64,000 nt of DNA from Candidatus Omnitrophota bacterium (GTDB lineage Bacteria; Omnitrophota; Gorgyraeia; B26-G9; JBDRCZ01): NCBI GenBank assembly GCA_043821285.1, contig JBDRCZ010000017.1:15947-79946 (forward strand), read 5' to 3'. A model generated the notes under the pieces. The model had not been told where the DNA came from and did no database searches. It saw nothing but the letters and a program-made list of their open reading frames with translations. Made by a program: the position numbers and the translations under genes. The stretch's first letter is position 1. Every line of letters begins with the position of its first letter. Positions 16,555 to 59,589 of the stretch are shown piece by piece.

Positions 16555-16639
16555 TAAAATATGAAGTATAAGTTGTAATTAAAGATTTAAAAAGTGTGTT
16601 GTATTCAAAAAAGGGGGATAAATTTCCCGTAAAAGGAAC

Positions 16640-16723
16640 AGGGCGGATCATCAAAGAAGTGCGCGTGATATCCGCCTAACAAACTGGCGGATTAAATTCC
16701 CCGCCAAAAGACATGGCGGGTCA
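16640..16723 (+). promoter_or_regulatory. Structured 5' leader with five alternating complementary segments (GGCGGAT / ATCCGCC / GGCGGAT / CCCCGCC / GGCGGG)
   Basis: Segments at 16642-16648, 16670-16676, 16687-16693, 16699-16705, 16715-16720 can pair 1:2 + 3:4 or 2:3 + 4:5, which are mutually exclusive hairpins. Followed by the RBS AAGGAGGGGG. Confidence 0.4.
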
Positions 16724-16738
16724 TTTAAAGGAGGGGGA

Positions 16739-23976: not shown

Positions 23977-24064
23977 TTACGATATAACTGGCCTGACCAA
24001 AAATCCCCAGTTTTCCCGTACAAACCAACGTAATCAAATTAACAGGTTATGCACAGGAGATATA

Positions 24065-24112
24065 TAACTGCTATAACTTATTTAAAATAAACAAGTTATA
24101 GCAGTTAATCGC
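24065..24112. promoter_or_regulatory. Perfect 15-bp palindrome TAACTGCTATAACTT-N13-AAGTTATAGCAGTTA between the GNAT gene and the membrane glycosyltransferase-like gene
   Basis: Read directly. It could be a terminator of the GNAT gene or an operator. It is not followed by a T-run. Confidence 0.3.
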
Positions 24113-24200
24113 TAATATTGTAGTTAACATAAGATACATTATAGGAAGTTAAGGATGGGCCAAGCAAGGCTGGGTTTGCTTGGGTATTTCGGAGTTTTGA

Positions 24201-25373: not shown

Positions 25374-25505
25374 ATTTTCATCGCTTTGAGGATTAAACTT
25401 GATTATTCCCTGTAGTTTGGCTATATGGTGATCTATTGGATGGAAAGTTTGAAAACCGTAGGTTTTCAAATGGATAAAAAATTTCCGTTGCTGCATTGCC
25501 TCATC

Positions 25506-25568
25506 AGCTTGGCAAAAGACCCTGTAATCTTGCTACAGGGATGGTCAAGCTAATGGAAATTTTTTATT
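25506..25568 (+). terminator. Rho-independent terminator between convergent genes
   Basis: Nested hairpin AGCTTGGC ... CCCTGTA-ATCTTGC-TACAGGG ... GTCAAGCT followed by AATTTTTTATT. Confidence 0.5.
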
Positions 25569-25575
25569 AACCGAT

Positions 25576-27147: not shown

Positions 27148-27954
27148 TTAAATAACTTCAAAGCTAAGCCCCCAGCATAGCTGGGGGCTTAGCTTTGAAG
27201 TTATTTTTTTCTTTTCCTTATCAGATATGCTATTTTCTTCAGTTATAAGTTTCAAAATTAACTGAGAGGGCTTAACGGATTGTTTTAATTTTCTTAGATC
27301 CGGCAAGTCACGTACCTTTTTATTTGTATCTACATATTTATTTTTTATTTTCATGGCAAACGCTTCATCTCCCAGAATACAGCCTTTTAACGTCAGTTTT
27401 TGCAAAGGGAATTTTTCTTTTAACATTCCTGCTGCAACAAACTGCCGATATGATTTTTTGCTCTCAAAAGAAGCCATTATGGTTTTTGTTTCCATGTAGT
27501 TAGGCAATATTTTTGAACCAACATAGTAATGATAACTGCACCAGGGATATTCATAAGGTGTATTAGATAATCCGGCAGCGACGGCGTTAAGATGTATGTA
27601 GCGTGACAGTTCATTAAGGTATGCATCTTTATCAACAACAATTGCTTTATATCTGCCTTGAAAGAGGTGTCCTACCCTCTTTTGTGCTTTATTATAATAT
27701 GTGGTGTAGCTTGAATTTATATACTGCATGCACCGGCTTAAATTAGCATATGGAGTTTCCATAAGCAAGTGATAATGATTAGGCATTAAACAATAGGCAT
27801 GAATTATAAAGCTAAAACGCAGGTATGCATTTTTAATATAAAATAAAAACTTATCTTTATCATAATCAGTAGTAAATATTTCATTTTTATCATTTCCTCT
27901 GGCACTGATATGATAAAAGGCTCCTGGATATTCAATTCTTAATGGTCTAGCCAT
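27148..27954 (-). CDS. IS200/IS605-like HUH tyrosine (Y1) transposase, long form with C-terminal extension
   Basis: N-terminus MARPLRIEYPGAFYHISARGN, HUH motif HYHLL, catalytic Tyr region GHLFQGRYKA; 268 aa. No TnpB partner present. Confidence 0.75.
   Translation of the reverse strand: MARPLRIEYPGAFYHISARGNDKNEIFTTDYDKDKFLFYIKNAYLRFSFIIHAYCLMPNHYHLLMETPYANLSRCMQYINSSYTTYYNKAQKRVGHLFQGRYKAIVVDKDAYLNELSRYIHLNAVAAGLSNTPYEYPWCSYHYYVGSKILPNYMETKTIMASFESKKSYRQFVAAGMLKEKFPLQKLTLKGCILGDEAFAMKIKNKYVDTNKKVRDLPDLRKLKQSVKPSQLILKLITEENSISDKEKKKITSKLSPQLCWGLSFEVI
27154..27202. repeat. Perfect 23-bp-stem hairpin (AACTTCAAAGCTAAGCCCCCAGC-ATA-GCTGGGGGCTTAGCTTTGAAGTT) at the 3' end of the HUH transposase gene
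   Basis: Read directly; overlaps the last ~18 codons of the transposase ORF. Followed on the + strand by ATTTTTTTCTTTT. Candidate IS200-type subterminal hairpin and/or bidirectional terminator. Confidence 0.55.
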
Positions 27955-29563: not shown

Positions 29564-29620
29564 GGATATATCGTGAAAAAGTAAGAAAAATCGTATTGTG
29601 TATTGAGTATTGTGGTTAAG

Positions 29621-29808: not shown

Positions 29809-29834
29809 AATTTTTTGTCATAAGACAAAAAATT
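29809..29834 (-). terminator. Terminator of giant gene A
   Basis: TTTTTTGTC-ATAA-GACAAAAAA hairpin immediately after the stop (minus sense ...GCAATATAA TTTTTTGTCTTATGACAAAAAAT). Confidence 0.55.
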
Positions 29835-32958: not shown

Positions 32959-33140
32959 ATTCGTTCTCGTATTGCGTTTTTTTATTGTCGTCTACTTGTT
33001 TTTATACTCAATACTCGATACACAATACACAATGCGTTGTTTAATCATTTCTCTCCGTGTTCTCTGCGGCTCTGTGTGATAAATTTTAGCTTTTATTTTC
33101 TGTCTTCTGAATTCTGATTTCTGTTTTCTGCTGTTAACTG

Positions 33141-36100
33141 TTAGATTGCTTGCTCTGCTATAAATATATTAGGTACTGTTATTTCTCCGGCACTTGGTAT
33201 ATCTTCAAGTAATGTGTCCGGTGCAAATACATTTTCATTAGCAGGATTGGCTCTTGTGGCTATATCTTTAGCGTTTATAACACGTTGTGAGCGTCTGTCC
33301 TTATGAGCACTAGTGTCATTCGTTTCCTTTTGTAATTTTGCAAGAAGAACCGGATTATCTTTTATTTCACGGTGATTTTTGACGTTGGGAAAAAAACCTG
33401 TTGTCAGTTTTCTTGCGGCGGTTAAATCATCAACAGTTTGAATAATCATTCCTAATTCACCATTTAAATCTTCGCTATGAACAACACCAGCTTCTAATCT
33501 TACCTGCATGCCTAATTCTGAAATCACTTCATTAACTTTGATTTCGATCGCTTTCAAAGTAGCGGCAATTTTTTCCGAAGTAATTATCCCATCATCTTCT
33601 CTATAAGCTCCTGCAAATTGATTATAAACATTGTTATTAATTGATAGAATTACATCATTTCCAACATTGTGGCCAAATACATCATTAATAACCTTAAATC
33701 CAAAATGCAATTGTGCAAATTGTGCATCTCCATTTAAGTCTGTTTCTCTGTAAAACTCTCTGTTGCCGCTTGCTCTTATGAAATCATTTATATTTATGGA
33801 TGTAGAACTAACTATATAATGTGCTGATAGTTTTATCAGTTGTACACGGTTATTTTCTCTTTTTATAACGAGGTAGAACTTATCAGGCCGTTCATGTACA
33901 ATACTGATTGAAACAGCAGATTTGCCGTCTAAAATGTTTTGAATGGTTTTGCCCAACTTATCTCTTTCTATTACCGGGTAAAACTTGTCTAAATCTTCTT
34001 TCGAAATACCCGCATCTATCATTTCCTGACGTATTCTTTCTCCTTCAACTCCTAATTGAAATTTTTTATCGTCAGCTATTTTAATCGGTGATTTTCTCTC
34101 TTCGCGCTCAGGATCTGGGCGTTCGGATAATCCTATTCCTACTAACTTGTTGGCATATTTAGTCCTGCGCTGGGTGTATTCCGCCTCATCTCTAGCAATT
34201 CTTAGTTGTTCCAATAGACTCATTTGGGAAATATTAGGTATATCACTTATTTTTACTGCTCCTACCGGGGCAAAGGGAACATAAACAGGAAAATAAATCT
34301 TACCATTAATATCAATGTCAAGACATTTAAGATTAGCGAGTATCTCGGATAGAACAGTGTTTTCATCCTCTTCTACATCTTTAGTGAACAGTATAAATGT
34401 TTCCTTAGAAGCCTTTTCTTCTTCTGGCGTTAAAAATACTGATTTTGTGACCGTAGTAATGTTTCTTTTTTTATTTTCTCTTAATTTTTCTATCAACGCA
34501 TCTCTGTTACTATCATTTATATTTTTTAGGATTGCAAAAACGTATTTTCCTTCAATCCGTTCTATGACCTTGCGTTGAATTTGTACGAGAAAGTGCTCAA
34601 TAACTTCTTTTGGCAACATAGGTGGTAACAAACCAACAACCTCATCACCACTAACATGATAAACTGTTCTACCTCTTTCTTCAATTTCTTTACGAGCTGC
34701 CTCAATTAATGTGTTAATTGCAAGTATATTCACATTTTCCCAGCCATATACATCATTTCTACCCCTTAGTTCGCTGATGTCAAAGAATATCACCCAAGCA
34801 TTGTCGTCGTGTCTACCTAAAAATACCACTGCTTCTTTTTCCCATTTTTGTGCATTTTCTGGATAGGCTTCATTAAGAAAGTTTCTTACGCGTGTTGTAT
34901 TATCAAATAAAGTGGTTAAATACATTATAAACTCTTGCAGTTCGTTATAGGGTTCGTCAGTATCTTTTCTACTTAAAAGAACATCTATCACCTTAGTAGC
35001 CGCGTCCCTAAATTGCTGATCATTAATATTTTGGTTAATAATTTTTCTCCACTTCTCACCTAAACGCTTTATTTCAGCCTTCAGAAACATTTCTATTGCT
35101 TCCTCATCTTCGCCTTGTTCTTTACACCTATCTACTTCTAATATTACTTTTTCTACATCTGCGCCCAACTCAAAAGCAAAAAATTCCCCATCTCGTTCCT
35201 GACTGGAATTTTCTCTTGGCAAAATGCTTGCCATACCTAAGCTAAATGCTGCGATTAAACCTGCGGTTCCTCCTCCCATCCCTGATTGAAGCATTGATGC
35301 TGCGGAAAATTCTGGTTGAGATGGGAAATAACCAAGTGCTCGCATTAATGTTCCAATAGATGCTGCTAAAAGCACGATGGATATTTTAGGTTTATTTCCA
35401 AACCATGCAACTAACCTCCTAATTAGCGTACCTAACCTGTTCTCATGGGAAGGACTTTTGTTTAATGCCCTCCAACCAGTTGGATGCATAAATGCTACAT
35501 TAGTTGCTTTGCGTCTACGATGAAGAAGTCCGCTTATATTTGCAGGAAATATTATTTTTCTGCTTATCCACTTTTTTACCTCATAAGCAATATATATTAA
35601 TGTTAAAATTATGCCCAAACCAGGTATTACCATACAATCGCTAATAAAATTATTCCACTGTTTAACACGAGCATAACCTTCTCTTACAGTAAAACTATCA
35701 ATAAAAAACTCTTCTCCCATCGGTGGCATGATACCAAACTTAGCAATAAAATCTGCCTGGTTTTTAAATGCTTCTGTTGTTTCTGGATTGATATCAAAAA
35801 AAGGAATAACTAATCGAGCAATGTTAAAAATCAACGTTACTGGGTTATGTTTTATAAGAAATTCCATTGGGTTTTTAGGCAAATTATCGACATGATGACT
35901 TAAACGCACTAATGTAACAGCGTATTCAAAAATTCCTCGCTTAGTAAAGAAATTTAATCCAATATTAGGATTACCCCATGTTCCATTCCATCTTGAACCA
36001 TAGACAATATCAAAATTGCTTTCACGGATAGGTGGATTATTTGTCATAAGAATTTGGTAAGTTTCGGGAGAAACTAATTTTATCAAAAATAGCGCTGGTC

Positions 36101-39100
36101 CAATATGTTCTGCTCCTTCAGTTCCATCTCTTCGCTCAATAAAATCGTCCAACATGCCCGCAGCTTTATATTCATTGTAAAGTTTAATTACGGCTGTATC
36201 GATTTCCTGAGCTCTTTTTCGTGCTGTTGATTCTATAAATGATCCCGTGTTTTCATCAATTTTTGATGCAAGTGGAGAGTTTTGAAATGTTTCAATTAGA
36301 TTATGGAATTCATTTAAAGCTATTTGTAATTCTCCATTATTTTCTTGTAATGATACAGGTTGTGGTAATTCATTAAGTTTTAAACTGTCAGCTGGTGTTG
36401 GCTGTACTAATCCACTTTTTCCAACTGGTTCTAAAGATACAATGTTTAATGGTGCAGCAATTCCGATTGGTGCTAATATGGTCTGTGATCCGATAGCGAG
36501 GATAGTGAGTAAAGGCAATACTACCTTACGTGCAAAAGAGAAGTTAACACTGTGTTTAAAACCCCAGCCAAAAATAGCTAATCCTATCAGTCCTATTGCC
36601 GCAATTACAGCACCTGGCAAACCAAAAAATAACCCTGCAAACCCAATTGCCATAATTAACCCATCGATTGAAAGTGCTGTGGTTCCATTAGGTAACCTAC
36701 GGCTGGAATTATTATCCGGCGCAGTAATCTCTACATTATCTCCATGATTAAACGTCTGTTCTAAGTCTTCTACGCTTCTGGGCAAGCCGTTAACTTTTAA
36801 CACCAACTCCCCAGACTGGAGCATTTTTTGTGTGGTTAGGATGGCTTTGCGATTACGATCATTATAATAAGAAATCTGTGAAGTAATAGTCTTAATAAAT
36901 AAATATGCCAGCAGATCATAGATATTTGTTGCGGGAATCTGTTCTGCTGATATCAGTTCTCTAATACCATCTTGTTGACTATTACTGGCTTCTTTAGTTA
37001 TTGTTAATTGGATTAATGCTTTTTGTTCTTCTTCTTGCAATTTTTGAGTTTGCTGAGTTATTTCATCCTCTAAAAGAGCTAATCCAGCCCTATGCTGCTC
37101 TAAGATATCTTTTTCAGGATCAAATTCCCCTTCAGCACAAATTATTAACCCATTTGGCATAATATAGTAGACTATATTGAGATAGCCATGTGTGCTTTTG
37201 CCGATCATCAGTGAGTTTTTATTATTTAGCCAACCTTCGTACCTTTCCTTATGAAGCATAATTTGTTGGCTATGTGTATAATATCTTAACGTTGCATTAA
37301 TAAAACCTTGCGCATCGGCTTCCTCTTCTTTACGATAAGTAAGTGTTGTTCCATGCCCAATGAAACCATTTTTATAATGTTCAGGTAAGTTCTTCCATTC
37401 TTTGTTCAAACCACTTTCAATCCTTTGATGCAGTGATTTGTTTCCAGGAGCCGGTATGACACGTTCTGGCTCTGATGCTAATATCTCAAAGCTCGTGAAG
37501 GCATAAAAAATATTTTCTCTATCTGTCGCAATACCCATGCGTGTTTGACCCAAATTATCAGTTACTACCTGCCAGGTTGTTAATCCTATTTCTCGAGTAT
37601 ATGCAATTAGCGCCAGTTCGTATATTTCTTCTGTTAATAGTCCATCATTTACCATCCGCACAAAAAGCTTAAGAAATTCGTTGCTGTGATATATAAACCC
37701 GACCAATATTACTAAAGAAATTTTTCTTAATCTTTCTGTTGCGTTCTCTTCCTTTTTGAGTTTACAATAGATTGCTTCTATTGCAGTAACACAATCACTT
37801 TTGTATTCTGAGCCTATTGGATCGTCTTCTAACAAGATATTCCCTAATATCTGAACCGCGTATTCTGTTCCAATATCACCTAAAAGGTTTTTAACAGCCC
37901 TTAGGCGTAAGTAAAGCGGGTTAGTTTTATCATTCAACGCATTTGTCACAAGTTTTTCTGCAGGTTCACCAATTCCTCTTATAATCTCCTCACCAAGCAA
38001 AAGTAAGTTGGTTAAGTTCATATTAATTATATATCTATTTGGTTGTTGAATTAATGTTCTCATTCGCTTAATACAAGATTCAATCACATGTGCTCCCAAT
38101 ATCTCTTTCCTGCCAATTTCAACTAAATAGTCCTTTAAAAGTTCTTTTCTTATGTTAGCAAGCTCATAAGCTGAATGAAAAAATAAAATTATTAAACTAT
38201 CAGTTATTTTATCAACCATTTGTTTAATAATATTGTTTTGGTTTTCTGCTCTGGGATTTATTTTTAATGCATTGGCAATTTCAGTTATAAACTGTCTATC
38301 TCTATCTGATAATTCATCCTGTTGAATTCTATTGTATAAGACGAATAAATATCTTATAAAATAATTGAGTACCTCAATAACAGTTCTAAGAAAATCTAGT
38401 TCAGTTTCGTTAAATACTTCTTTTTTTTCAAATTTTTCCTGTGTCATTTGCTCAAATATTTCTTTTATCAATATAACCACTCGTATTTCATTACGTTCTT
38501 TAAGTATGTTAATAAGTAAACGTCTTATCCTCAGGTCAGAAGATTGAAGCACGTATTCTCTTATGTGGGGAAATGCCCGCTCGACAATATTACCTAACAC
38601 CGAAGAGGCAATTGTAACACGTGTTCCGCGATATATTAATCCCTGTTCACTTAATTCTGTAACAGCAGATTGAAGATTATCTTCTGATTTTTTTGCAATC
38701 TCCGTCAAAATATCAATAATCACATCTTGTTTTTTTTCTCCATGATCAAGCAGGTGCCGGATAGCTTTTACGCCAAACCCTTTAACCAAAATATCTTTAA
38801 TATCAGATGTTATTTCACGATCTTCACTATGAGCTGATAAGGCATCTGTTAAAAGGTCCATTGCCGTTGCAATTGTATCTTCATCTCTATTAGCAAATTC
38901 ACCAAGTTCAGCCATATTATCAGTACGTGAAGCGCGATCTCTATACGTAGCTAACTTATTAATCACATCCTGTATGTAAGCTCTCGTTGTACTATTATAA
39001 CTATTTCTATTGCTAAAATGCTTTGTTGTATCTTCTCCCGGATTGCCCCAATCTTGTAAACTAGAAAAAGGTAACTTTAATCCACCTATTCCGGCAAATG

Positions 39101-39581
39101 TCAGTTTAGGGTTTATGCATTGCCAAAATAAATAAACTACCCCTGTTATCATTAACAATACATAAGGATTATTAAAATAACCATGAGGTATATTAGAAGA
39201 TAAGGAAATAATTATTTGCTTAAGTGGGTATAAGATTGTGCTTAGCGGTATTATATTGCTTATTACCAACACAGAAAATATTGCTAAAGCAGTTATACCG
39301 GCAATATAAGCTAATGTTCTGAATCTGTTTAAAAAGATTGGTGATTCTGTTGTAGGTTGTTTTGTTGTGATGGTAGCTGGGGCATGAGGTGTCATTTTTT
39401 CTCCTGAAATTATGAAAGCATGTTCCGTTACGGAATTAGCTATTTGCAATTCAGGGGCAAGGTGGGTGTGTAGACCTTTTAGATTGCCGCCGGCGGCCCA
39501 GGAAATGTCCAGGCATAAAAAGGCATTGATTAATATTATGGAAATTAGTCTAAAATAAATTTTACGTGTTAAATTATTCAT
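33141..39581 (-). CDS. Giant-family protein B (2146 aa): signal peptide, several TM clusters, HEAT/ARM-like repeats, two degenerate GGDEF-like nucleotide-cyclase palm domains, C-terminal IAEQAI
   Basis: N-terminus MNNLTRKIYFRLISIILINAFLCLDISWAAGGNLKGLHTHLAPEL. GGDEF-like 1: FFDISELRGRNDVYGWENVNILA...YHVSGDEVVGLLP. GGDEF-like 2: HFGFKVINDVFGHNVGNDVIL...AYREDDGIIT. TM clusters at about aa 85-165, 960-1010, 1290-1420. No terminator between B and A. Confidence 0.7.
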   Translation of the reverse strand: MNNLTRKIYFRLISIILINAFLCLDISWAAGGNLKGLHTHLAPELQIANSVTEHAFIISGEKMTPHAPATITTKQPTTESPIFLNRFRTLAYIAGITALAIFSVLVISNIIPLSTILYPLKQIIISLSSNIPHGYFNNPYVLLMITGVVYLFWQCINPKLTFAGIGGLKLPFSSLQDWGNPGEDTTKHFSNRNSYNSTTRAYIQDVINKLATYRDRASRTDNMAELGEFANRDEDTIATAMDLLTDALSAHSEDREITSDIKDILVKGFGVKAIRHLLDHGEKKQDVIIDILTEIAKKSEDNLQSAVTELSEQGLIYRGTRVTIASSVLGNIVERAFPHIREYVLQSSDLRIRRLLINILKERNEIRVVILIKEIFEQMTQEKFEKKEVFNETELDFLRTVIEVLNYFIRYLFVLYNRIQQDELSDRDRQFITEIANALKINPRAENQNNIIKQMVDKITDSLIILFFHSAYELANIRKELLKDYLVEIGRKEILGAHVIESCIKRMRTLIQQPNRYIINMNLTNLLLLGEEIIRGIGEPAEKLVTNALNDKTNPLYLRLRAVKNLLGDIGTEYAVQILGNILLEDDPIGSEYKSDCVTAIEAIYCKLKKEENATERLRKISLVILVGFIYHSNEFLKLFVRMVNDGLLTEEIYELALIAYTREIGLTTWQVVTDNLGQTRMGIATDRENIFYAFTSFEILASEPERVIPAPGNKSLHQRIESGLNKEWKNLPEHYKNGFIGHGTTLTYRKEEEADAQGFINATLRYYTHSQQIMLHKERYEGWLNNKNSLMIGKSTHGYLNIVYYIMPNGLIICAEGEFDPEKDILEQHRAGLALLEDEITQQTQKLQEEEQKALIQLTITKEASNSQQDGIRELISAEQIPATNIYDLLAYLFIKTITSQISYYNDRNRKAILTTQKMLQSGELVLKVNGLPRSVEDLEQTFNHGDNVEITAPDNNSSRRLPNGTTALSIDGLIMAIGFAGLFFGLPGAVIAAIGLIGLAIFGWGFKHSVNFSFARKVVLPLLTILAIGSQTILAPIGIAAPLNIVSLEPVGKSGLVQPTPADSLKLNELPQPVSLQENNGELQIALNEFHNLIETFQNSPLASKIDENTGSFIESTARKRAQEIDTAVIKLYNEYKAAGMLDDFIERRDGTEGAEHIGPALFLIKLVSPETYQILMTNNPPIRESNFDIVYGSRWNGTWGNPNIGLNFFTKRGIFEYAVTLVRLSHHVDNLPKNPMEFLIKHNPVTLIFNIARLVIPFFDINPETTEAFKNQADFIAKFGIMPPMGEEFFIDSFTVREGYARVKQWNNFISDCMVIPGLGIILTLIYIAYEVKKWISRKIIFPANISGLLHRRRKATNVAFMHPTGWRALNKSPSHENRLGTLIRRLVAWFGNKPKISIVLLAASIGTLMRALGYFPSQPEFSAASMLQSGMGGGTAGLIAAFSLGMASILPRENSSQERDGEFFAFELGADVEKVILEVDRCKEQGEDEEAIEMFLKAEIKRLGEKWRKIINQNINDQQFRDAATKVIDVLLSRKDTDEPYNELQEFIMYLTTLFDNTTRVRNFLNEAYPENAQKWEKEAVVFLGRHDDNAWVIFFDISELRGRNDVYGWENVNILAINTLIEAARKEIEERGRTVYHVSGDEVVGLLPPMLPKEVIEHFLVQIQRKVIERIEGKYVFAILKNINDSNRDALIEKLRENKKRNITTVTKSVFLTPEEEKASKETFILFTKDVEEDENTVLSEILANLKCLDIDINGKIYFPVYVPFAPVGAVKISDIPNISQMSLLEQLRIARDEAEYTQRRTKYANKLVGIGLSERPDPEREERKSPIKIADDKKFQLGVEGERIRQEMIDAGISKEDLDKFYPVIERDKLGKTIQNILDGKSAVSISIVHERPDKFYLVIKRENNRVQLIKLSAHYIVSSTSININDFIRASGNREFYRETDLNGDAQFAQLHFGFKVINDVFGHNVGNDVILSINNNVYNQFAGAYREDDGIITSEKIAATLKAIEIKVNEVISELGMQVRLEAGVVHSEDLNGELGMIIQTVDDLTAARKLTTGFFPNVKNHREIKDNPVLLAKLQKETNDTSAHKDRRSQRVINAKDIATRANPANENVFAPDTLLEDIPSAGEITVPNIFIAEQAI

Positions 39582-40047
39582 AAGTTAATAGCCTATCAGT
39601 TAATTCCAAATGTTCCGCCTATCAAACCGGCGGACAGGCAAATAATAAAATCCAAATGACAAATGAATCATTTAATATCTCAATCTAAAAATCAAAATGA
39701 TATATTAAAATTCAAATATTTTTCTCTTTGACAGGATTTACAGGATTAACATGATTTTTTATCCAGTTAATCCTGTCTATTTTCTTATTTTCTCTGTGAA
39801 CTTTGTGTTCTCTGTGGTTATAAATTTTTTTATTTTTTTTAATCGTAATACTCAATACATGCTACTCAATACGCATTACTTTTTATAGTGTGCTCTCTGT
39901 GGTTAAAATATTTTTTGTTTTTTTATCTACATAATCATCCGTATTCTACGCTCTCTTTTATATGCACTATTTTCATTACAATCATACATATTGTAACCGC
40001 TAATAATTACAATCTGTTAAATATATTTATAACAATTTTAATATATA
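39582..40047 (-). promoter_or_regulatory. Long conserved 5' leader of giant gene B (about 465 nt)
   Basis: Shares several blocks with the 59037-59553 leader of gene E: conserved stem-loop TCCGCC-GGTTTGATA-GGCGGA near the start codon, CTCTGTG(A/G)TGATAAATTTTT boxes (CACAGAG in RNA sense), ACTCAATAC heptamers, AATCCTGTCTAT box. Confidence 0.5.
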
Positions 40048-40054
40048 CAAGTAA

Positions 40055-40082
40055 AGTATACCATATTTTTCTGATTTTTCAA
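40055..40082 (-). promoter_or_regulatory. Near-consensus sigma70 promoter of giant gene B
   Basis: Minus sense TTGAAA-N16-TGgTATACT (extended -10). Same sequence context (GTATACCATAT...TTTCAAGG) as the gene E promoter. Confidence 0.5.
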
Positions 40083-40419
40083 GGATTTTGCTAAAAAAAT
40101 ATAGAAAATAACAGATTAAAAGATTCAGGTGATCACGGTTTTAAAACAGTATCAAGGCATTATTTATAACTTATTTATTTATAATATATTATAAAATAAT
40201 TATCGAATATGCCTACATGTTAATTATTCGTGAAATTCGTGTAATTTGTTGTTTAAAAATAAGCAGTTAAAGTTTTTCTTTGTGTGATAAATTTTATTTT
40301 TTACCGCAGAGAAAATCTAAAAGAAATCTCGTTCACAGATGTATGTAAGTTACATCCACTTTCTATTCTTAGTGCGTTACGTAAACGGTAAACTGCCTGC
40401 CTCCCGTTAGGGAGGTAAA

Positions 40420-40447
40420 CTAAAAAATTGCCATAGGCAATTTTTTA
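40420..40447 (-). terminator. Terminator of giant gene C overlapping its stop codon
   Basis: Minus sense GCAATTTAA-AAAATTGCC-TAT-GGCAATTTTTT: 10-bp A/T-flanked stem. The stop-codon region GGCAATTT can alternatively pair with AAATTGCC. Confidence 0.6.
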
Positions 40448-43400
40448 AATTGCCCGTTCAATTTCAAACAAATCTGCTATCTCTCTCTTCTCCAGTTTTG
40501 TATCTGATCCATTTATGCCTACCCTATAGCCAGTGTGTCTTTCTTGGGGAGCAACTATTAGAGAATAAAGAGCGTGTAGTAACAGCATATCAGAATCAGA
40601 AATATGAGGGTCTATATTTTTTGCTTCTAATATTGATTCATCATCGCTTATTATTTCTTGTATAATTGTTTTTACTATATCTCTATCTTCAGCTCTGCAT
40701 TTTTCATGAATTGCATTCAGACATTGTTCAAAAAATGGTCTGAGCATCATAAGCTGAACATTATCTTCTTGTGTATATGCATTGGCAACTGCTTTTGTAA
40801 CTGTTTCTAAAACAGTTTGCCGGTAATCTGGTCTTACCGTATAGATATTATCAAAAAAGATAAAAGTCCCGGCTGCGGCTTGTGGCATTATTGTCTTGTT
40901 TAGTATCTCATTAATAACATTTCGAGGAAAATATACTAAAATACTTAATAATTTATCTATTGTAGTATTACTTGGGGTTAAACCTTGCTGCTGGATCAAC
41001 TCTTGATATTTTCTTCCTATGATTCTATGCATAGATTCAAGACTTCTTCTATTTGCATTTATCATTAAATTATTTCCTTTAACTGCTGTAACTAAGTCCG
41101 TTAATTCGCTTCGTATCATTTCTCGTTCTTTCTCAAATACATCCGTATCTTCGTTCCTCTGAGATATAAATAACCCTAAAAATTCAAGTTCTAATGCTTT
41201 TTTAAAGGCATCTTCCGAAGTAAATGCGTTTAATCTAACAGTAATATTTTCTAACAACATTAGCTCAAAGCTGGTACCTTGACGAAAAATATGTTTTAGA
41301 AATTTTTCTGCATTAGTAAATTCGGGTGAAAAGATGATTTCTCCACTGACACCATCTACTGTTTTCTCCATCACTTCATTTATCAAATTACCTACTGAAT
41401 CTAAGTTGTGAAACTCGTTTAATCTATTTTCATCTTGTATAACAGCTCTTAAATAAACCTCCATTCTTAAAAGGTAATCAGCCAAAAAAACACCATCAAT
41501 TGCAAAACGTATATTTTCATTCGTATCTTGAGTTCTTGCAGTCAAGGCTTGATAAAGAAAATCATCTATATCGGTCAACATTCTATAAAAGATTTCCATT
41601 GCTGTTTCCTTATCCTGTTTTAGAGCAAGTTCGAGGACATTATTAACATTTGAAAAATCTCGTGAAATATACTCCTTAATTACATCACATAACGCATTGA
41701 ACAGTGGTTTTTTATCACGACGGTAAATAGCAAAACTTAGCCTAATAAATGCTGCTAATATCTCATGGGAATTAAATCCTGAATTTATTAAATAACTTTG
41801 CTCCTTTTCTATATAGATTGGTATAATTTTAGAAACGTCATATCCCGCAATAACTGTGTAAGCAACTGCAGCAAAAATAAGATTATGTGTTTCTGCATCA
41901 TGTTTAGGAATGTTTATTCGTTGTAAGATTTCTCCTAATACTTCTCCTGCCTCAGTAGTTCTCTCCTCTTTTCCTTCAATCTGCGCTTTTATTTTATTAG
42001 TAAAAAATTCAAAAACAAAATCAGGTTCTGCCTTAAGATACGCTTCTATTGTTTCCCAATCTGCTGCTAATAAATTACGCAGTTTTTGGATTTTATCTTG
42101 AACCACGATTAAGTTATTTCGTAGATTGCTTATTTTTTTCTGATTTTTTCTCGTTTGTTTTTGCTCTTTGTTTATGGTTTGCTGAATAGTTCTTTCATTG
42201 CTTTGGCGACGATTAAGTGCCTGCGTCCTTGTAATAACTCCTTCTAAGAGGATTGTTACTTCAGAGAGTTTTTCTCTACGCGCTTTTACTGCCGGGGGCA
42301 TATCTAAAAGTAGAGGTTCCCTTGTTGTCACTGGAGCCTGCCATGCTGGAAGTTCTTCAGATGCTACTTGCATAGCAGCAGCGCCTTGAAGGACCTGAGG
42401 ATATAATGAATGTTTTTGCATTGGGTCTTCAACTAACATAAGCTCACAACTTTGAGGCGGTTTGAGAGCATTAATTCTATTTTGGATAACTACTCCCAAT
42501 CCCCAAGCCCATTCTGCTTGACTTTTATATAAATCAACTAAGGCTTCAATATCCTCACTTTCGTTTATAATTGCGGTTATTCTCTCTACCAGAGGAGCCC
42601 GGCTGTTTCTGTTAGGATAGGTATTAAGCATTTGATATAATTCAGGTATATTACTTAAATCATTATAACCGAGTAATCTTTTTCTCAGTACCTCTGCTAT
42701 TACCCCCCTTATTTGCTTACATCCGTAGGTATATTTATTTATAGAATTATCTGTAAGTAAACGAAGCAGGTTTTCGATATCTAAGGAAAACACTTGCCTG
42801 ATAATACCGAAAATAATATATATTTCTACTTCAGAGTGAATTTTTTTACTAAGTAAATTAGCTAATGCAGCAAGTGCCTCGCCCCCCCATTTACTAACCA
42901 TCTCCTGAGCAATAGCTTGAGCTTGTGTTTTGTCATTATTTTCTGCTTGCTGACGTTTAAATCTATCGGAAATTGCGGTTAATCGTTCAATGCCATCTTC
43001 AATCGAAGAAACAGTTAGGTGTATTTCTGATATTTTTCCTTGAGAAGCAATACTATTACTTAATTGTGCGGCTGCTGCTTGCTTTGTTTTCTGGGGTAAC
43101 CTTGGATTTCGTGACCACTCTGAAAGCAAGCGATCATTTACTTCTGCTAATCTTTTTGCAGTGCTTAACGCCTTAATTCTATACCAAAGATAATTATTCC
43201 AGTATTCATCGTCCCATTCTTGGCTTAGATACACATCAACTAAGGCAACAATATCTTGATTATTTTTTATTATATGTTTCATCCTTCTTCTTGCCAGATC
43301 TTTAATGTCTTCGTTCGGACATAATGTTTCATTATTAATAACATAATATAATGCAGAAATACTTGTTACGTTTCGAGGAATGCTAACAGTTTTTATGATA

Positions 43401-46400
43401 ATTATGCTTTTAATCATACCTCTGGTAACTTCAGCTCCTTTAGTTTCTTGCTGATTCATCGCAGTATATAAATAAAATATTTCTGTAACAGACATTGAGT
43501 TAAGACAATTACCAAGTGCCGACATAGTTATTTCTATTGCTTCTTCATTAAGAAGATTCGTATCAATTTGCTCAGCAAATTGTTTAATAATTTCTAAAAA
43601 CTCATCTTTATCCTTTGTGTTATACATTTCTGTTATAATATTTTTAACTTCTTGAGGAGCGGATGCAATAAAGGCTTGTATTTCTTCGGGTGTCTGATAA
43701 TAATCAGCCAACTCTTTCTCCAGCTTTTCTATTTGTGACGCAATTGTCGTATCTAGTTCTGGTTTATTAATTCGCAGCCACTCTATTATTCTTTTTCTTA
43801 CTGTCCGATCTTGGATGCCAATCAATAATCCTAGTACATGCACTACCTCGTTTTCTAAACACATGTATTGTGACAAGATGTCGTTAAGTTCCGTATTCGC
43901 TGCATTGCTAAAGAATAGGTATATAGTACCAGCAATATGTTTTTGTATGCCCGTAAGTCTAAGGATTTTTTCACTCAAAATATTTCTTATGCTCGAACCC
44001 CAGCTTCTTTCTAAATATAATTCTACTGCTGTCTTTAAATTATCACATTCATTAACCAGTTCTCTTATTCTCATCCTTAGCAGTGCCCGGGTTCCTTCAT
44101 GGTACTCTCTATCATTGAGCAAATCTTGCAGTGGTTCGATACTAGCAATGCCTTGATATTCAGCAAGGCGCTGTTTGATCGCTTCTATTAATTGACTACT
44201 ATTGTCCCCATGATTTAACCTACGCAATAGTTCCTCTAAGGTGAGAGTTTTTATGGGGTCAAAATCTGCTAGTAGTTCTGCAAAAGTTACTTGATTATCA
44301 GAAGGCGCTGCAACTTCTCTTGTCGGGGGGGCATCCCTGTTGGTGTCGGCTCTTTGATTAGCGTTTCGCCATGCTGCTCTTAAGGCACGTGTATCTGACT
44401 GTGATGGTGGCTCTGGAAAATGTACCACCTGAGCTGCATTCGACGGAGCTGTTGTTCGTACAAACCTATCTGGAGGGGATAGTGATAGATCGAAAGCAGC
44501 TGCTAGTTTTTCTAATGAGTTTAGAGTCAAAGGGTTATTGTTTCCTGATGGAGGAACTGTATCTTTTGGTAAAGCAACTTCTGCTGTGTCAGTCCCTTCC
44601 TTTTCTGGTTGTCGCAAGTCACCTGATTGTAATGGTACGGTGTATGCTTGAGGGTTATTTTCTTTTTCCCTTTCCCTTTTCCTTTTCTTTCTTGCAATAG
44701 GAGGACTATCTGCTCTATATTGTTTACGTGCTTTCCTTTTCATTAATACAACTTTATCTTCTTCTTCATCATCATCATATTGGTCACTATCATCTATTGC
44801 ATTTATTAACTCCTCTATTATGAGCATTAAAGCAATCCGTATATTTTCTTCTGATAATTCACCCGAACCCTCTTGCATCAATTGCTCAATTTCTTCCTCT
44901 GACAAAGTTAAATCGTTTATAACACCAATGAGCTGTTCAATGATTTGACCATTCTCGTGTGCGCTTTCAATTATATTATCTATAGCATCTTTTAACGCTT
45001 CATGATATGTATCTTCATCAAGTAGTAAATAAGTTTTTACTAAAAAACTAAGATCTATTTCTAAAGCACTATTTCTCGTTGATCTTACGCCGGTACTACC
45101 AAGCAAGCATAGTAAACTAAATCCCCAAGCCAACCCCTTCCAAATAAAAAATGCCAGTGCATCTGGTCTTGCGGCAACAAAGTGTACTACTGGATATAAT
45201 AATCCTTCATGTCGTGCAAGAGAATTTATGATTGTAAATTCGATGTAGTCGATAATAATGAGCATAGCTGATTTAGCACCAGTAACCGCCTTTTTAACTA
45301 ATTCCCAAACATTTGGTATAAATTGTATCTGCGGTTGTATATATAAAGGAAAGGTCATTATTAAGGAAAGACCTAATATAGCGTGTATTGGTAAATGCCC
45401 TAAGTTTACACTAACCGGGATGCCCGTGATATTACTGATTACCTCTAATATAAAAGGTGCAATCAATAATAAAAAGAGGCCATTTATTAATGGATGGGAA
45501 TTCAGGGTAACACTCTTACCAGCATTACTTTCTTGATAAAATTCTCTTACCGCTCTATTTGTTTTTATTAAAGCACGTAAATCAATAATGATATTTCCAT
45601 TTCTATCTTTACGAAGGTCATGTTTATTTTCCTTGTCAGATAAAAATATCTTATCATCTTCTTTCACAATTTTATATTCCACGTTACCAATCCAAATAAT
45701 ATCATTTTCCCTGAAAGTTACTTCTTTCCTTAAAATATCAATGATTAATTCCTTGCTGTTTGCTTCGTTACGCAGAAGAATAGTATTACCAGCTATTGCA
45801 TATTTTGTATTATCTATCATTCTGTCTTGATGCCACCATGCTATTCTGAGTTTGTAACCATCACCCTTTCCCTCAGTTTTTATTTTTTTTAGACCATCTG
45901 TTGGGAAAAATTCTAACCGTTCTCGTAAACGCTGGATTTTAGTATTGTATTGTCTTATATCTAAAATTCGCTTGTTATGAATGTTCTGAATTACAGCTAA
46001 TAACTCGTTGTCCTTAATACTTGCTAATAATGCGCCATAAAAGGCCAGACCTAAGCTATCTACTCTTAAAACTATTCTTTCTATTTCTGTGTGTTTGTTT
46101 TTGTTAAATAGAGTTGTTAAATAATTAGCCAATATCAGTACAAATTCCCCGCCCCACCACTTTATAACCTCAACCAATTGACCAAGAGACTGCGGTGTAA
46201 TATTTTGATGTTCATTCAGGAGATTTTCAATAATTTGTAATACTGCAGAAACTGAATATACACCAAATTGTTCGGCCAAAGCTTTGATTATTGCCAATCT
46301 TTGCGTTTCATCAAAATTATTAAGATTAGCTTCTTTTTCTTTCATCATCTTAATATAATTTTCGGCTGAATCCCAATCTTGAGTAGACTTATTAGTATCC

Positions 46401-47536: not shown

Positions 47537-47853
47537 ATGTTAATACCCTGTTAGTTAATTCCAAATGTTCTAATTCAAGATTTAAAAATTCCAAGATTCC
47601 AGATTCTAAAATTATAAAATTCCCCGCTACAAGGTCGAAGATCCGCCATCGTATTAGTGAAGAACGCTGGCGAACAGGCAAATTCTCTAACCTTCGGCAA
47701 GTAAAACGTTTTGAATCGTTAAATCTTAAAATATTCAAATTTTGGAATTGTTTGTTTTATTCTTCTGTCTTCTATTCTCTACCTTCTGTTTTCTGCTTTC
47801 AATCAGCTGTATCAGTAAACGGTAAACTGCCTGCCTTCCATTAGGGAGGTAAA

Positions 47854-47881
47854 CTAAAAAATTGCCGCAGCAATTTTTTAG
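47854..47881 (-). terminator. Terminator of giant gene D overlapping its stop codon
   Basis: AAAAAATTGC-CGCA-GCAATTTTTT hairpin; minus sense ...GCAATCTAA AAAATTGCTGCGGCAATTTTTTAG. Confidence 0.6.
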
Positions 47882-53553: not shown

Positions 53554-53756
53554 GATTTGTAGATATGTTTATCCATTCCAGATTTTAAAATTCCCCGCCA
53601 TAATGCGTTGACAGGCAGATTCAAAATTTAAATATTTTCTTTGAAACAAGTGTCACATGATTAATCTGATTTTTTATCCTTCTTTATCCTATTAATCCTG
53701 TCTATTTTTTCTGCTTTTTTGTCTTCCAAATTCTGACTTCTGTTTTCTATCACAGT

Positions 53757-55285: not shown

Positions 55286-55313
55286 CTAAAAATTGCCGAT
55301 GGCAATTTTTTTA
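55286..55313 (-). terminator. Terminator of giant gene E overlapping its stop codon
   Basis: AAAAATTGCC-GAT-GGCAATTTTTTT; minus sense ...GCAATCTAA AAAAATTGCCATCGGCAATTTTTAG. Confidence 0.6.
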
Positions 55314-59036: not shown

Positions 59037-59553
59037 AATAAATATCTCCAGTTATTTAATTTTAAATGTCCCGCCTATCAAACCGGCGACAGGCAAATGA
59101 ATCATTAAATAATTCAATCTTTAAAATTTATTTATGTAATTTGTGTGATTTGTTGTTAATAAAATAAGTACTTGAAATCTTTCTTTGTGTGCTCCGTGTC
59201 TCTGTGTGACAAATCTAATATTTTTGTTTCGCTTGTCCGCCGTGCTCTGTTTGGCGGGTCATTCTGGTTTCGTTATTCGTTATTAAATTATCCTGTCTAT
59301 CATCCACAATGATTGGCGGATCTTCAATTTTTTATATTTTCTCTGTGAACTTTGCGAGCTCTGTGGTGATAAATTTTTTATTTTTTTTTACCGCGATACT
59401 CAATACTCATTGCTTTTTATAGTGTGCGCTCTGTGATGATAATTTTTGTTTTGTTTTTTTAGCCACAATGCTCAATACACAATACCCGATACTTAATCAT
59501 ATTACTTTTCATAATGCCTTGTTATAAATAAATTTATAACATCTTTTAAATAG
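59037..59553 (-). promoter_or_regulatory. Long conserved 5' leader of giant gene E (about 515 nt)
   Basis: RNA sense contains at least 6 CACAGAG motifs, TATTGAG/TATTGTG heptamers, an AATCCTGTCTAT box, and the stem-loop GTCGCC-GGTTTGATA-GGCGGGAC 50 nt before the ATG. Collinear blocks shared with the gene B leader. Confidence 0.5.
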
Positions 59554-59560: not shown

Positions 59561-59589
59561 AGTATACCATATAATTACGCAATTTTCAA
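59561..59589 (-). promoter_or_regulatory. Near-consensus sigma70 promoter of giant gene E
   Basis: Minus sense TTGAAA-N17-TGgTATACT, read from + strand AGTATACCATATAATTACGCAATTTTCAA. Confidence 0.55.

What the first reader, a model, noticed from the sequence alone, without database searches (positions are those of the whole stretch)
39597..39645. Conserved start-proximal stem-loop with invariant loop GGUUUGAUA and compensatory stem changes
About 40-60 nt upstream of the start codons of B and E, the RNA reads UUUGCCUGUC-CGCC-GGUUUGAUA-GGCGG-AACAUUU in B and UUUGCCUGUC-GCC-GGUUUGAUA-GGCGGG-ACAUUU in E (59060-59100). The loop is identical and the stems differ yet still pair. C (47640-47700) and D (53600-53625) keep the flanking UUUGCCUGU and GGCGGGGAAUUUU but have different or longer hairpins. 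A conserved loop on a variable stem is the hallmark of a sequence-specific protein or RNA recognition site, possibly controlling translation of these Shine-Dalgarno-poor genes.
Basis: seen in the sequence. Interest (0 to 1): 0.6.

Follow-up and report, generated by a model that had tools for sequence, protein, structure and literature searches.

The report
Tiny mobile hairpin repeat, not translation switch
The stem-loop upstream of two giant genes is real, but it is one copy of a previously undescribed 25-base hairpin element that is scattered through intergenic DNA of this Omnitrophota genome and of marine anammox bacteria (Scalindua), so it is not a control device specific to these genes.

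Summary
B and E carry GCCTGT-(C)CGCC-GGTTTGATA-GGCGG 33-34 nt upstream of their ATGs. The "compensatory stem changes" are one deleted C and one A-to-G change, so they are not covariation.

The hairpin is not specific to these genes. A third copy (CCGCC-AGTTTGTTA-GGCGG, 16672-16690) lies antisense to its neighbouring gene, and a fourth, opposite-strand variant sits inside E's own leader. An exact-pattern scan of metagenomes returned at least 120 loci, and about 105 of them share flanks that were not in the pattern (CCTGY ... GRA). Most are Candidatus Scalindua. The window itself is Omnitrophota.

- **Position:** the element is about 95% intergenic and occurs in all four intergenic types.
- **Orientation:** it occurs in both orientations relative to flanking genes.
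- **Nesting:** in four loci a whole unit sits inside the loop of another copy.
- **Mobility:** orthologous sites differ by exactly the 25-nt unit, with no target duplication.
- **Known families:** no Rfam family matches, and the sequence appears in no searched paper.

Best reading: a miniature mobile palindromic repeat, like REP elements or cyanobacterial small dispersed repeats (SDRs). It was carried along in the duplicated 5' module of the giant-gene family. A RAYT-like transposase gene lies in the window but is not flanked by the hairpin. A local effect on mRNA remains possible.

The parts
39614..39638 (-). B copy of the 25-nt unit: CCTGT CCGCC GGTTTGATA GGCGG A. It is preceded by TTTG and followed by ACATTTGGAATTAAC, and its 3' end lies 33 nt upstream of the ATG of gene B (39581).
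   Evidence: Sequence. Pattern hit 39614-39638. Covariance-model hit 39609-39645, 39.6 bits, E = 1.2e-7.
59070..59093 (-). E copy: CCTGT CGCC GGTTTGATA GGCGG G. It is 24 nt long because one C of the 5' arm is missing. It lies 34 nt upstream of the ATG of gene E (59036).
   Evidence: Covariance-model hit 59066-59100, 23.4 bits, E = 1.1e-3.
16672..16690 (-). Third copy, CCGCC AGTTTGTTA GGCGG. Its core is identical to the Scalindua consensus. It lies antisense to the adjacent plus-strand PilZ-like ORF (16739-17125) and lacks the CCTGY tag.
   Evidence: Covariance-model hit 16671-16691, 29.6 bits, E = 3.2e-5.
16700..16720 (-). Companion hairpin of a second type (CCCGCC ATGTCTTTT GGCGGG). It forms a doublet with the 16672-16690 copy. 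The same doublet type is seen in loci L048 and L068 from a 2.17-Mb metagenome contig.
59237..59257 (+). Variant family member on the opposite strand inside E's leader: GCTTGT CCGCC GTGCTCTGTTT GGCGG GTC. The tag and stem are kept, and the loop is a different 11-nt sequence.
   Evidence: Covariance-model hit 59225-59263 (+), 12.8 bits, E = 0.42. Pattern hit.
47642..47682 (-). C variant: TTTG CCTGT TCGCC AG[CGTTCTTCACTAATACGAT] GGCGG A. The tag, stem and first loop bases (AG) are kept and the rest of the loop is replaced. It is followed by the dispersed module GGCGGATCTTCGAC, which also occurs at 23418-23431.
   Evidence: Not detected by the covariance model.
53587..53619 (-). D variant: TCTG CCTGT CAACGC ATTAT GGCGG GGAATTTT. 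Its 5' arm is degenerate.
   Evidence: RNAfold z = -3.6 for its context.
27148..27954 (-). RAYT-like Y1 (HUH) transposase gene. It is a candidate trans-acting mobiliser; that role is inferred only, because the gene is not flanked by the hairpin.
   Evidence: Pfam Y1_Tnp, 54.2 bits. NCBIfam REP-associated tyrosine transposase, 75.7 bits against a cut-off of 80. Flanks read.
40055..40082 (-). Sigma-70-like promoter with extended -10 (TTGAAA-N16-TG-TATACT). It would put the B hairpin at the 3' end of a leader of about 470 nt.
   Evidence: The homologous site for E is at 59561-59589. Consensus match only; not evidence of function.

Best explanation
The stem-loop is a copy of a miniature dispersed palindromic element. 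Its unit is 25 nt: CCTGY-CCGCC-RGTTTGWTA-GGCGG-R, usually preceded by YG. The element populates intergenic DNA of this Omnitrophota genome and, in near-identical form, of Candidatus Scalindua.

Shown: it is multi-copy and intergenic. It occurs in either orientation relative to genes. It can sit inside the loop of another copy. It is present or absent as an exact 25-nt block at orthologous sites, without target-site duplication.

Inferred:
- One copy landed in the 5' module (leader plus signal-peptide coding region) of the giant secreted-protein gene family before that module was duplicated or converted among paralogues. B and E therefore share it at the same site, and C and D carry rearranged versions.
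- The strict conservation of stem, loop and CCTGY tag reflects recognition of the folded single strand by a sequence-specific trans-acting protein that inserts or excises it.
- A Y1/HUH (RAYT-like) enzyme such as the one encoded at 27148-27954 is the most plausible candidate, because that enzyme class moves hairpin DNA without duplications.
- When transcribed inside the B and E leaders, the element forms a 5-8 bp G+C-rich hairpin that may incidentally affect mRNA stability or processing, as REP elements do. It is not a dedicated translational operator.
For: - 94 non-redundant copies share flanks that were not in the pattern. The base at -5 is C in 86/94, -3 is T in 83/94, -2 is G in 86/94, -1 is C or T in 93/94, +1 is G in 78/94 and +3 is A in 76/94. 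The roughly 10 high-GC hits lack these flanks, which is about the number expected by chance.
- **Taxa:** the window is Omnitrophota (DnaE 100% to an NCBI MAG; next relatives about 62% and all Omnitrophota). The loci are Scalindua or Brocadiales by clusters at 90% identity.
- **Position:** only 4 of 92 copies lie inside ORFs. Among copies with both neighbours defined, the intergenic types are >M> 17, <M< 11, <M> 10 and >M< 9.
- **Neighbouring genes:** no gene family recurs next to the element.
- **Nesting:** in L029, L043, L056 and L113 a complete unit sits in another copy's loop directly after RG. The inner copy in L043 has CCACC/GGTGG, a compensatory change.
- **Empty sites:** L057 reads ...CTCCCCG[CCTGCCCGCCAGTTTGTTAGGCGGA]GACAAAC..., and L052 reads ...CTCCCCG|GACAAAC... 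in otherwise about 90% identical flanks. L014 against L052 shows AAATTCTTT[25-nt unit]AATCACTC against AAATTCTTT|AATCACTC.
- **Window:** three good copies and one opposite-strand variant, plus other dispersed intergenic modules shared between giant-gene leaders and unrelated intergenic regions.
- **Structure:** the -1:+1 pair is CG 42, UG 24, UA 9.
- **Candidate enzyme:** a RAYT-like gene lies in the window, with a 54% identical homologue in Scalinduaceae.
Against: - The RAYT-like gene is not flanked by the hairpin in the window, and neither are homologues in one Scalinduaceae contig and two near-identical Omnitrophota contigs. The REP-RAYT link is therefore unsupported.
- Insertion sites share no common target tetranucleotide (CCCG^GACA, CTTT^AATC, CCRG^TTTG, ACTA^AAGT). 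This is unlike IS200/IS605-type insertion.
- The element is perfectly conserved in orthologous cstA leaders, while their flanks are far more diverged. About seven independent copies sit 30-35 nt upstream of a start codon. There is a mild bias towards sense orientation. All three points hint at a cellular function beyond selfish spread.
- Core covariation cannot be judged, because the copies were collected with an exact core pattern.
- Three other Omnitrophota dnaE neighbourhoods (70 kb) have no copy, so the distribution is patchy and its cause is unknown.
Confidence: 0.65

Rival explanations
1. The hairpin is a cis-regulatory RNA element. Its invariant loop is bound by a conserved RNA-binding protein or RNA that tunes translation or stability of the downstream mRNA. 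The many copies would form a regulon, not a repeat family.
For: In orthologous Scalindua cstA leaders the element sits at a fixed 32-34 nt from the ATG and is 100% conserved, while the flanks have diverged. B and E have it 33-34 nt from their ATGs. About five further independent copies lie 27-35 nt upstream of a start codon. There is a mild excess of sense orientation. Two mutually exclusive helices share the 3' arm GGCGG, as in a switch, and the distal helix shows some covariation at -10:+2 (CG 18, UA 15).
Against: - About 40% of copies are antisense to their neighbouring genes, and 9 of 47 lie between convergent genes.
- Distances to the next start codon range up to more than 1 kb.
- The copy at 16672 is antisense to its neighbouring gene.
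- Nested copies and exact 25-nt presence/absence differences are not expected of an operator.
- The downstream genes are functionally unrelated.
- There is no Rfam match.
- The distal helix cannot form in the AAGTGA-flanked subfamily.
Confidence: 0.15
2. The element is a DNA operator. The inverted repeat CCGCC-N9-GGCGG would be the binding site of a dimeric transcription factor or nucleoid protein that acts on double-stranded DNA in either orientation.
For: The arms are palindromic, use is orientation-independent, the location is intergenic and copies are often near gene starts. The B/E plus-strand loop TATCAA resembles the first half of the IHF consensus WATCAA-N4-TTR; this comparison is from memory and was not tested.
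Against: - The asymmetric 9-nt spacer and the one-sided CCTGY tag are as conserved as the arms, which is atypical for a dimeric operator.
- Copies occur between convergent genes and directly after stop codons.
- Nesting and precise 25-nt indels are seen.
- No -10 or -35 partner lies at a fixed distance.
Confidence: 0.08
3. The element is a neutral relic. B and E look alike here only because their upstream regions were duplicated recently, and the hairpin has no identity of its own.
For: The five genes share a duplicated 5' module (leader blocks plus 48 codons), and blocks are exchanged in a mosaic fashion.
Against: Between B and E the element is about 95% identical, against 52% for the 100 nt upstream and 71% for the CDS. 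The same unit occurs at an unrelated site in the window and in more than 100 loci of another phylum.
Confidence: 0.03
4. The element is an intrinsic terminator or attenuator, or a sigma-70 promoter whose -35 box (TTGATA or TTGTTA) lies in the loop.
For: It has a G+C-rich stem. The loop contains a TTGACA-like hexamer, and a TA-starting hexamer follows 17 nt later in several start-proximal copies. This was seen by inspection.
Against: T is not enriched at +4 to +12, and no position downstream is conserved like a -10 box. The scans call neither a terminator nor a promoter at these sites. Many copies are far from any start codon.
Confidence: 0.04

Closest known systems
Small dispersed repeats (SDRs) of heterocyst-forming cyanobacteria (Elhai et al. 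2008, Genome Res 18:1484). The paper is not held in the library. It is known to me from memory and from citations in PMC5861425 and PMC3116915.
   Same: Both are very small units (21-27 nt there, 25 nt here) and some are imperfect palindromes. Both are intergenic and multi-copy. Both are found nested within one another. Both are inferred to be mobile from presence/absence at orthologous sites, and neither has a known transposase.
   Different: The taxa differ (Omnitrophota and Planctomycetota here, Nostocaceae there). The sequences are unrelated as far as I can tell, and I could not compare them directly. Here the same unit is shared across two phyla. PMC5861425 reports that HIP1 may be an insertion site for SDR5, and no comparable target is seen here.
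REP elements and REPINs mobilised by RAYT (Y1/HUH) transposases (PMC3116915, PMC3733652).
   Same: Both are short G+C-rich extragenic palindromes with an unpaired tag on one side. Both are high-copy and can form hairpins in ssDNA or mRNA. A RAYT-like gene is present in the same genome. Insertion occurs without target duplication, as expected for HUH enzymes. Some copies form doublets (16672-16720; L048; L068).
   Different: - The tag is CCTGY, not GTAG or CGTC.
- The unit is shorter, with a 5-8 bp stem and a conserved 9-nt loop.
- Most copies are singlets.
- The RAYT-like genes examined are not flanked by the element.
- Copies are as common in divergent (promoter) spacers as elsewhere, whereas REPs lie mostly downstream of genes (PMC3733652 abstract).
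Intergenic heptamer direct repeats (TAACTGA) of marine Beggiatoaceae, cyanobacteria and Bacteroidetes (PMC4679880).
   Same: Both are short sequence units shared by distant phyla without an evident transfer mechanism, often close upstream of start codons. The hairpin here is embedded in arrays of comparable short tandem repeats (GTATTGA, CACAGAGnn, AATTCTAAA, GAAGTGAnCTAAAGTTT).
   Different: Those are tandem direct repeats without a hairpin. The element here is a single palindromic unit.

Membership tests
REP / REPIN-RAYT system | Short (20-40 bp) imperfect palindrome, extragenic, many copies per genome | tested here: met
   The unit is 25 nt. At least 3-4 copies lie in 64 kb of the window and more than 100 loci were found in metagenomes. 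Only 4 of 92 copies lie inside ORFs.
REP / REPIN-RAYT system | Unpaired GTAG or CGTC tetranucleotide at one end (PMC3733652) | tested here: not met
   The conserved unpaired tag is CCTGY at the 5' end (RCAGG on the other strand). No GTAG or CGTC is seen in the position counts.
REP / REPIN-RAYT system | The RAYT gene is flanked by copies of its REP | tested here: not met
   The flanks of 27148-27954 were read and hold no copy. The covariance model finds none around homologues in L125/L126 (Scalinduaceae) or L127/L128 (Omnitrophota). The sample is small.
REP / REPIN-RAYT system | A RAYT (Y1_Tnp) gene is present in the genome | tested here: inconclusive
   Pfam Y1_Tnp scores 54.2 bits, above its cut-off. 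NCBIfam REP_Tyr_transpos scores 75.7 bits, just below its cut-off of 80. The family is widespread in many phyla, so its presence is weak evidence.
REP / REPIN-RAYT system | Copies occur predominantly as inverted doublets (REPINs) | tested here: not met
   Most of the 94 copies are singlets. Doublets with a second hairpin type occur only in the window at 16672-16720 and in L048, L068 and a GC-50% group.
Cyanobacterial small dispersed repeats (SDRs) | Unit of 21-27 nt, dispersed, nested within other copies, present or absent at orthologous sites | tested here: met
   The unit is 25 nt. There are four nested cases. There are two exact 25-nt empty sites and one composite one.
Cyanobacterial small dispersed repeats (SDRs) | Sequence identity to SDR1-8 consensus sequences; restriction to Nostocaceae | not testable with these tools
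   The defining paper is not held. The taxa here are Omnitrophota and Scalindua, so by taxon this is not a member.
Curated cis-regulatory RNA families (Rfam 15) | Match to a covariance model at the gathering score | tested here: not met
   The only hit in the window at the gathering score is a tRNA. Nothing relevant appears at E <= 5 in 39500-40460 or 16250-16800.
Intrinsic terminator | G+C-rich hairpin followed by a run of T | tested here: not met
   T is not enriched at +4 to +12. No terminator is called at 39.6 kb or 59.07 kb.
Integron attC site | Paired R'' (RYYYAAC) and R' (GTTRRRY) cores 50-140 nt apart on one strand | tested here: not met
   Only one core-like GTTAGGC spans the loop and 3' arm, with no partner on the same strand. 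This is from inspection. The attC consensus is quoted from memory.

The most novel reading that the evidence does not exclude
A 25-nt self-nesting hairpin is an active mobile element that inserts without target duplication and without a fixed target. It is shared almost base-for-base between a deep-branching Omnitrophota lineage and marine anammox Scalindua. This would imply one of two things. Either the element was recently transferred horizontally together with its still unknown mobilising enzyme between co-occurring organisms, possibly predator or epibiont and host. Or a conserved hairpin-reading protein exists across PVC bacteria. It would be among the smallest mobile DNA units known, and the first shared across phyla.
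Probability: 0.2. Interest if true: 0.75.

Novelty: new variant of a known kind. Interest (0 to 1): 0.5.

Why it matters
If the reading holds, intergenic regions of two poorly studied PVC lineages (Omnitrophota and anammox Scalindua) are shaped by a 25-nt hairpin element. That is far smaller than MITEs or REPINs. It moves as an exact unit, nests in its own loop and lacks the tags that define known REP superfamilies.

- It offers a tractable substrate (one short oligonucleotide) for finding the enzyme that moves such elements.
- It is a possible marker of DNA exchange between Omnitrophota and anammox bacteria.
- It is a caution for RNA-motif discovery. A conserved loop on a G+C-rich stem near start codons can be a repeat family and not a riboregulator.
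- For the giant secreted-protein genes, their long leaders appear to be mosaics of dispersed modules, not one dedicated regulatory RNA.

Tried and rejected
- **Orthologues of the giant genes.** A profile of their shared 48-aa N-terminus found nothing in genome contigs or metagenome contigs. It found one 67-aa protein among 5.8 billion (P0001), whose contig could not be fetched. Orthologous giant-gene leaders could therefore not be compared.\n- **Exact look-ups of window proteins.** Protein E and DnaE (P0102) are not on record.\n- **Rfam.** No family matches at the gathering score or at permissive thresholds.\n- **Literature.** A search for the sequence in either strand, as RNA or DNA, gave 0 papers. 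'Scalindua' together with 'repetitive extragenic palindromic' gave 0 papers.\n- **Viral contigs.** One hit, high-GC, judged to be chance.\n- **Other Omnitrophota.** The dnaE neighbourhoods L122-L124 hold no family member.\n- **RAYT-like gene flanks.** L125-L128 hold no family member.\n- **Recurrent neighbouring gene.** Clustering of 653 ORFs from the loci found none.\n- **Promoter and terminator readings.** Rejected.\n- **Replication-strand bias.** GC skew flips at about 25 kb together with gene orientation, so the two cannot be separated. Copies on the same contig agree in orientation in 8 of 10 pairs, which is only a weak trend.\n- **Taxonomy of two further hit groups.** The doublet-bearing loci with GC near 50% and the 2.17-Mb contig could not be placed.\n- **SDR paper.** The Elhai 2008 paper could not be read.

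Full report
**What is at the coordinates.** The motif lies on the minus strand, as do six large tandem genes: A 29833-32820, B 33141-39581, C 40445-47536, D 47878-53553, E 55311-59036 and F 59959 onwards. These genes share only three things. The first is a signal-peptide-like N-terminus of about 48 aa. The second is a C-terminal ...EQAI tail. The third is a conserved terminator. Their middle parts are unrelated: D contains transketolase domains and E a methyltransferase domain.

Upstream of B the RNA-sense strand reads TTTG CCTGT CCGCC GGTTTGATA GGCGG A ACATTTGGAATTAAC, ending 33 nt before the ATG. Upstream of E it reads TTTG CCTGT CGCC GGTTTGATA GGCGG G ACATTTAAAATTAAA, ending 34 nt before the ATG. 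C and D keep TTTGCCTGT or TCTGCCTGT on the 5' side and GGCGGGGAATTTT on the 3' side, around different interiors.

**What is not correct in the observation.** A pairwise alignment of the two upstream regions shows that B and E differ here by one deleted C and one A-to-G substitution. That shortens E's core stem from five to four pairs, so it is not a compensatory exchange. RNAfold gives unremarkable z-scores for the leader 3' ends, -1.3 for B and -0.9 for E. As RNA, both copies prefer a competing helix in which the same 3' arm pairs with the upstream TTTGCCTGTC.

The block nevertheless stands out. It is about 95% identical between B and E. The 100 nt upstream are 52% identical and the first 150 coding nucleotides are 71% identical.

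**The element is not confined to the giant genes.** A scan for small CGCC...GGCG hairpins found 9 in the window, against 1.0 +/- 1.0 in shuffles, and eight of the nine are intergenic. One of them, at 16672-16690, reads CCGCC AGTTTGTTA GGCGG. That is 17 of 19 bases identical to B. It lies on the minus strand next to a plus-strand PilZ-like ORF, so it is antisense to its neighbour.

Other pieces of the giant-gene leaders also recur in unrelated intergenic regions of the window:
- heptamer GTATTGA repeats
- the module GGCGGATCTTCGAC
- CACnGAT-type repeats

The leaders are therefore mosaics of dispersed modules.

**The family in public data.** The N-terminal profile of the giant genes found no relatives in genomes or metagenomes, and only one short protein among 5.8 billion. 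I therefore scanned metagenomes with the DNA pattern CCGCCRGTTTGWTAGGCGG.

About 105 of the loci are low-GC contigs (0.32-0.47) in which flanks outside the pattern are conserved. Among 94 non-redundant copies the consensus is T-N-C-C-Y-R-C-C-T-G-Y | core | G-R-A. About ten high-GC hits lack these flanks, which matches the number expected by chance.

Proteins encoded on the loci fall into 90%-identity clusters named Candidatus Scalindua or Brocadiales. The window itself belongs to an NCBI Omnitrophota MAG. Its DnaE is 100% identical to P0102, and the next relatives are all Omnitrophota at about 62% identity. The same unit therefore occurs in two phyla.

A covariance model built from the copies gave four hits in the window:

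| Site | Strand | Bits | E-value | Note |
|---|---|---|---|---|
| B, 39609-39645 | - | 39.6 | 1.2e-7 | |
| 16671-16691 | - | 29.6 | 3.2e-5 | |
| E, 59066-59100 | - | 23.4 | 1.1e-3 | |
| 59225-59263 | + | 12.8 | 0.42 | tag and stem kept, 11-nt loop, inside E's leader |

**Behaviour of the family.** Only 4 of 92 copies lie inside ORFs of at least 120 aa. The copies with both neighbours defined split as follows:

| Intergenic type | Copies |
|---|---|
| Co-oriented tandem | 17 |
| Anti-oriented tandem | 11 |
| Divergent | 10 |
| Convergent | 9 |

Distances to the next same-strand start codon range from 23 to more than 1800 nt. There is a small cluster at 27-35 nt. The downstream genes are unrelated in function (cstA, a U32-type gene, a glpD-like gene, murA and others), and no gene family recurs nearby. 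No T-run follows the hairpin and no -10-like position is conserved. The promoter and terminator scans call nothing at the B and E sites. Rfam has no match, and the sequence appears in no paper searched.

**Evidence for mobility.**
- **Nesting.** In four independent loci (L029, L043, L056, L113) a complete unit sits inside the loop of another copy, always directly after the loop's first two bases RG. The inner copy in L043 has CCACC/GGTGG, a true compensatory change.
- **First empty site.** L057 has CTCCCCG[CCTGCCCGCCAGTTTGTTAGGCGGA]GACAAAC where L052 has CTCCCCG|GACAAAC, within about 90% identical flanks.
- **Second empty site.** L014 has AAATTCTTT[CCTGTCCGCCAGTTTGTTAGGCGGG]AATCACTC where L052 has AAATTCTTT|AATCACTC.
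- **Composite case.** In a third pair (L104 against L045) the element is missing together with adjacent short repeats.

No target duplication is seen. The insertion sites share no obvious target sequence.

**Evidence for constraint.** In three orthologous Scalindua cstA leaders, the element plus the next 14 nt are identical. The surrounding intergenic DNA is far more diverged there, and the CDS is less conserved than the element.

The closing pair -1:+1 varies as CG 42, UG 24, UA 9, and -3:+3 is UA in 57 of 79 sequences. Position -2:+2 is almost always a G-purine mismatch. A distal alternative helix (5' YCCYGCC with GGCGGGRA) is strongly favoured energetically in two subfamilies. It shows covariation at one pair (CG 18, UA 15), but a third subfamily cannot form it. 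The core pairs cannot be assessed, because the copies were collected with an exact core pattern.

**A candidate enzyme, not linked.** The window encodes a RAYT-like Y1 transposase at 27148-27954. It scores 54 bits against Pfam Y1_Tnp. Against the NCBIfam REP-associated tyrosine transposase model it scores 75.7 bits, below the cut-off of 80. Homologues at 50-60% identity occur in Omnitrophota, Scalinduaceae and several other phyla.

Neither this gene nor homologues in Scalinduaceae and Omnitrophota contigs are flanked by the hairpin. The element's tag is CCTGY, not the GTAG or CGTC tag that defines the known REP superfamilies (PMC3733652). Three other Omnitrophota dnaE neighbourhoods have no copy.

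**Interpretation.** The best-supported account is a miniature mobile palindromic repeat. Its behaviour is closest to the cyanobacterial small dispersed repeats, which I know from memory and from citations in PMC5861425 and PMC3116915. Its form is closest to REP elements (PMC3116915, PMC3733652).

B and E share the copy at the same site because it lay in the 5' module that was duplicated or converted among the paralogues. C and D carry rearranged versions. Three steps are inferred and not shown:
- recognition of the hairpin by a trans-acting protein
- a Y1/HUH mechanism of movement
- any effect of the transcribed hairpin on the B and E mRNAs

The main rival is a generalised RNA operator. It is kept alive by the fixed spacing in the cstA, B and E leaders and by the orthologous conservation. 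It is weakened by antisense, convergent, nested and polymorphic copies.

**Verdict.** The element family appears undescribed. I rate it a new variant of a known kind, of moderate interest.

Noticed in passing
window 29833-64000 (minus strand): Six tandem giant genes (995 to more than 2363 aa) share only a signal-peptide-like N-terminus of about 48 aa (MNNLTRKIxFRLISIILINAFLCLDISWAAGGNLKGLHTHLAPPL), a C-terminal (I/V)EQAI tail and a conserved terminator hairpin. Their middles are unrelated and include cytoplasmic-type enzyme domains (transketolase in D; methyltransferase and a weak, below-cut-off phosphoribosyltransferase match in E). The N-terminus has a single homologue among 5.8 billion proteins (P0001).
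   Followed up: partly
window 27148-27954 (-): A RAYT-like Y1/HUH transposase gene of 268 aa. Its C-terminus overlaps a long perfect hairpin (AAGCTAAGCCCCCAGC-TATG-CTGGGGGCTTAGCTT). Homologues of 50-60% identity occur in Omnitrophota, Scalinduaceae, Nitrospirae and Geobacter, many of them on contigs of about 1 kb.
   Followed up: partly
window 53922-54986 (+): A DDE_5-family transposase gene (an insertion sequence) sits between giant genes D and E, on the opposite strand.
   Followed up: no
window 7481-7514, 29593-29614, 33004-33033, 39848-39871, 59396-59409, 59464-59492: Tandem heptamer repeats (CAATACT / GTATTGA and variants) recur in intergenic regions, both inside and outside the giant-gene cluster. 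They are reminiscent of the intergenic TAACTGA heptamer repeats described in Beggiatoaceae and cyanobacteria (PMC4679880).
   Followed up: partly
window 33060-33095, 39790-39816, 39895-39901, 59200-59230, 59341-59365: CACAGAG-type 7-mers (CACAGAGnn, CACGGAG, CACAAAG), some in runs spaced about 9 nt apart, occur in the leaders of A, B and E. A related 10-11-nt periodic CACnGAT series occurs at 5104-5148 and 16413-16457.
   Followed up: no
window 1410-1426 / 16425-16441 / 5104-5148 and 1531-1562 / 16471-16502: Two further dispersed intergenic modules, ACGGATTAACACTGATT and AAATTCACGYATTATTCAGRATAATCT, are shared by the upstream regions of unrelated plus-strand genes.
   Followed up: no
window 40055-40082 (-) and 59561-59589 (-): Homologous sigma-70-like promoters with extended -10 (TTGAAA-N16/17-TG-TATACT) lie about 470 and 520 nt upstream of the B and E start codons. 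This implies unusually long leaders built of repeat modules. A, C and D lack this promoter block.
   Followed up: partly
window 16700-16720 with 16672-16690; loci L048 426-462 and 759-795; L068 5909-5945: A second hairpin type (CCCGCC-ATGTCTTTT-GGCGGG, loop core AAAAGA/TCTTTT) pairs with the main element as a doublet. This is seen in the window and in a 2.17-Mb metagenome contig (Ga0315338_1000003) of unknown taxon.
   Followed up: partly
window 23385-23440 and 47634-47647: The module GGCGGATCTTCGAC occurs at the tip of a long palindrome (GCGAAATTGTCGAAGATCCGCCGCCGTGGCGGGGCGAAGACAATTTCGC) upstream of the ORF at 23497, and again inside C's leader. An inverted variant (GAAGATCCGCCA) lies in E's leader at 59309-59320.
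   Followed up: no
window about 24000-26000: GC skew, AT skew and gene orientation all change sign at about 25 kb (plus-strand genes to the left, minus-strand genes to the right). This could be a replication terminus or only a coding-strand effect.
   Followed up: no
loci L013, L028, L065, L038, L054, L019, L084: In Scalindua the hairpin units sit inside arrays of short tandem repeats (AATTCTAAA, CTCAATC, GAAGTGAnCTAAAGTTT, GGACAAAAAGCGCC). Long, repeat-filled intergenic regions therefore seem to be a shared trait of the hairpin-bearing genomes. Three other Omnitrophota loci (L122-L124) have compact spacers and no hairpins.
   Followed up: partly
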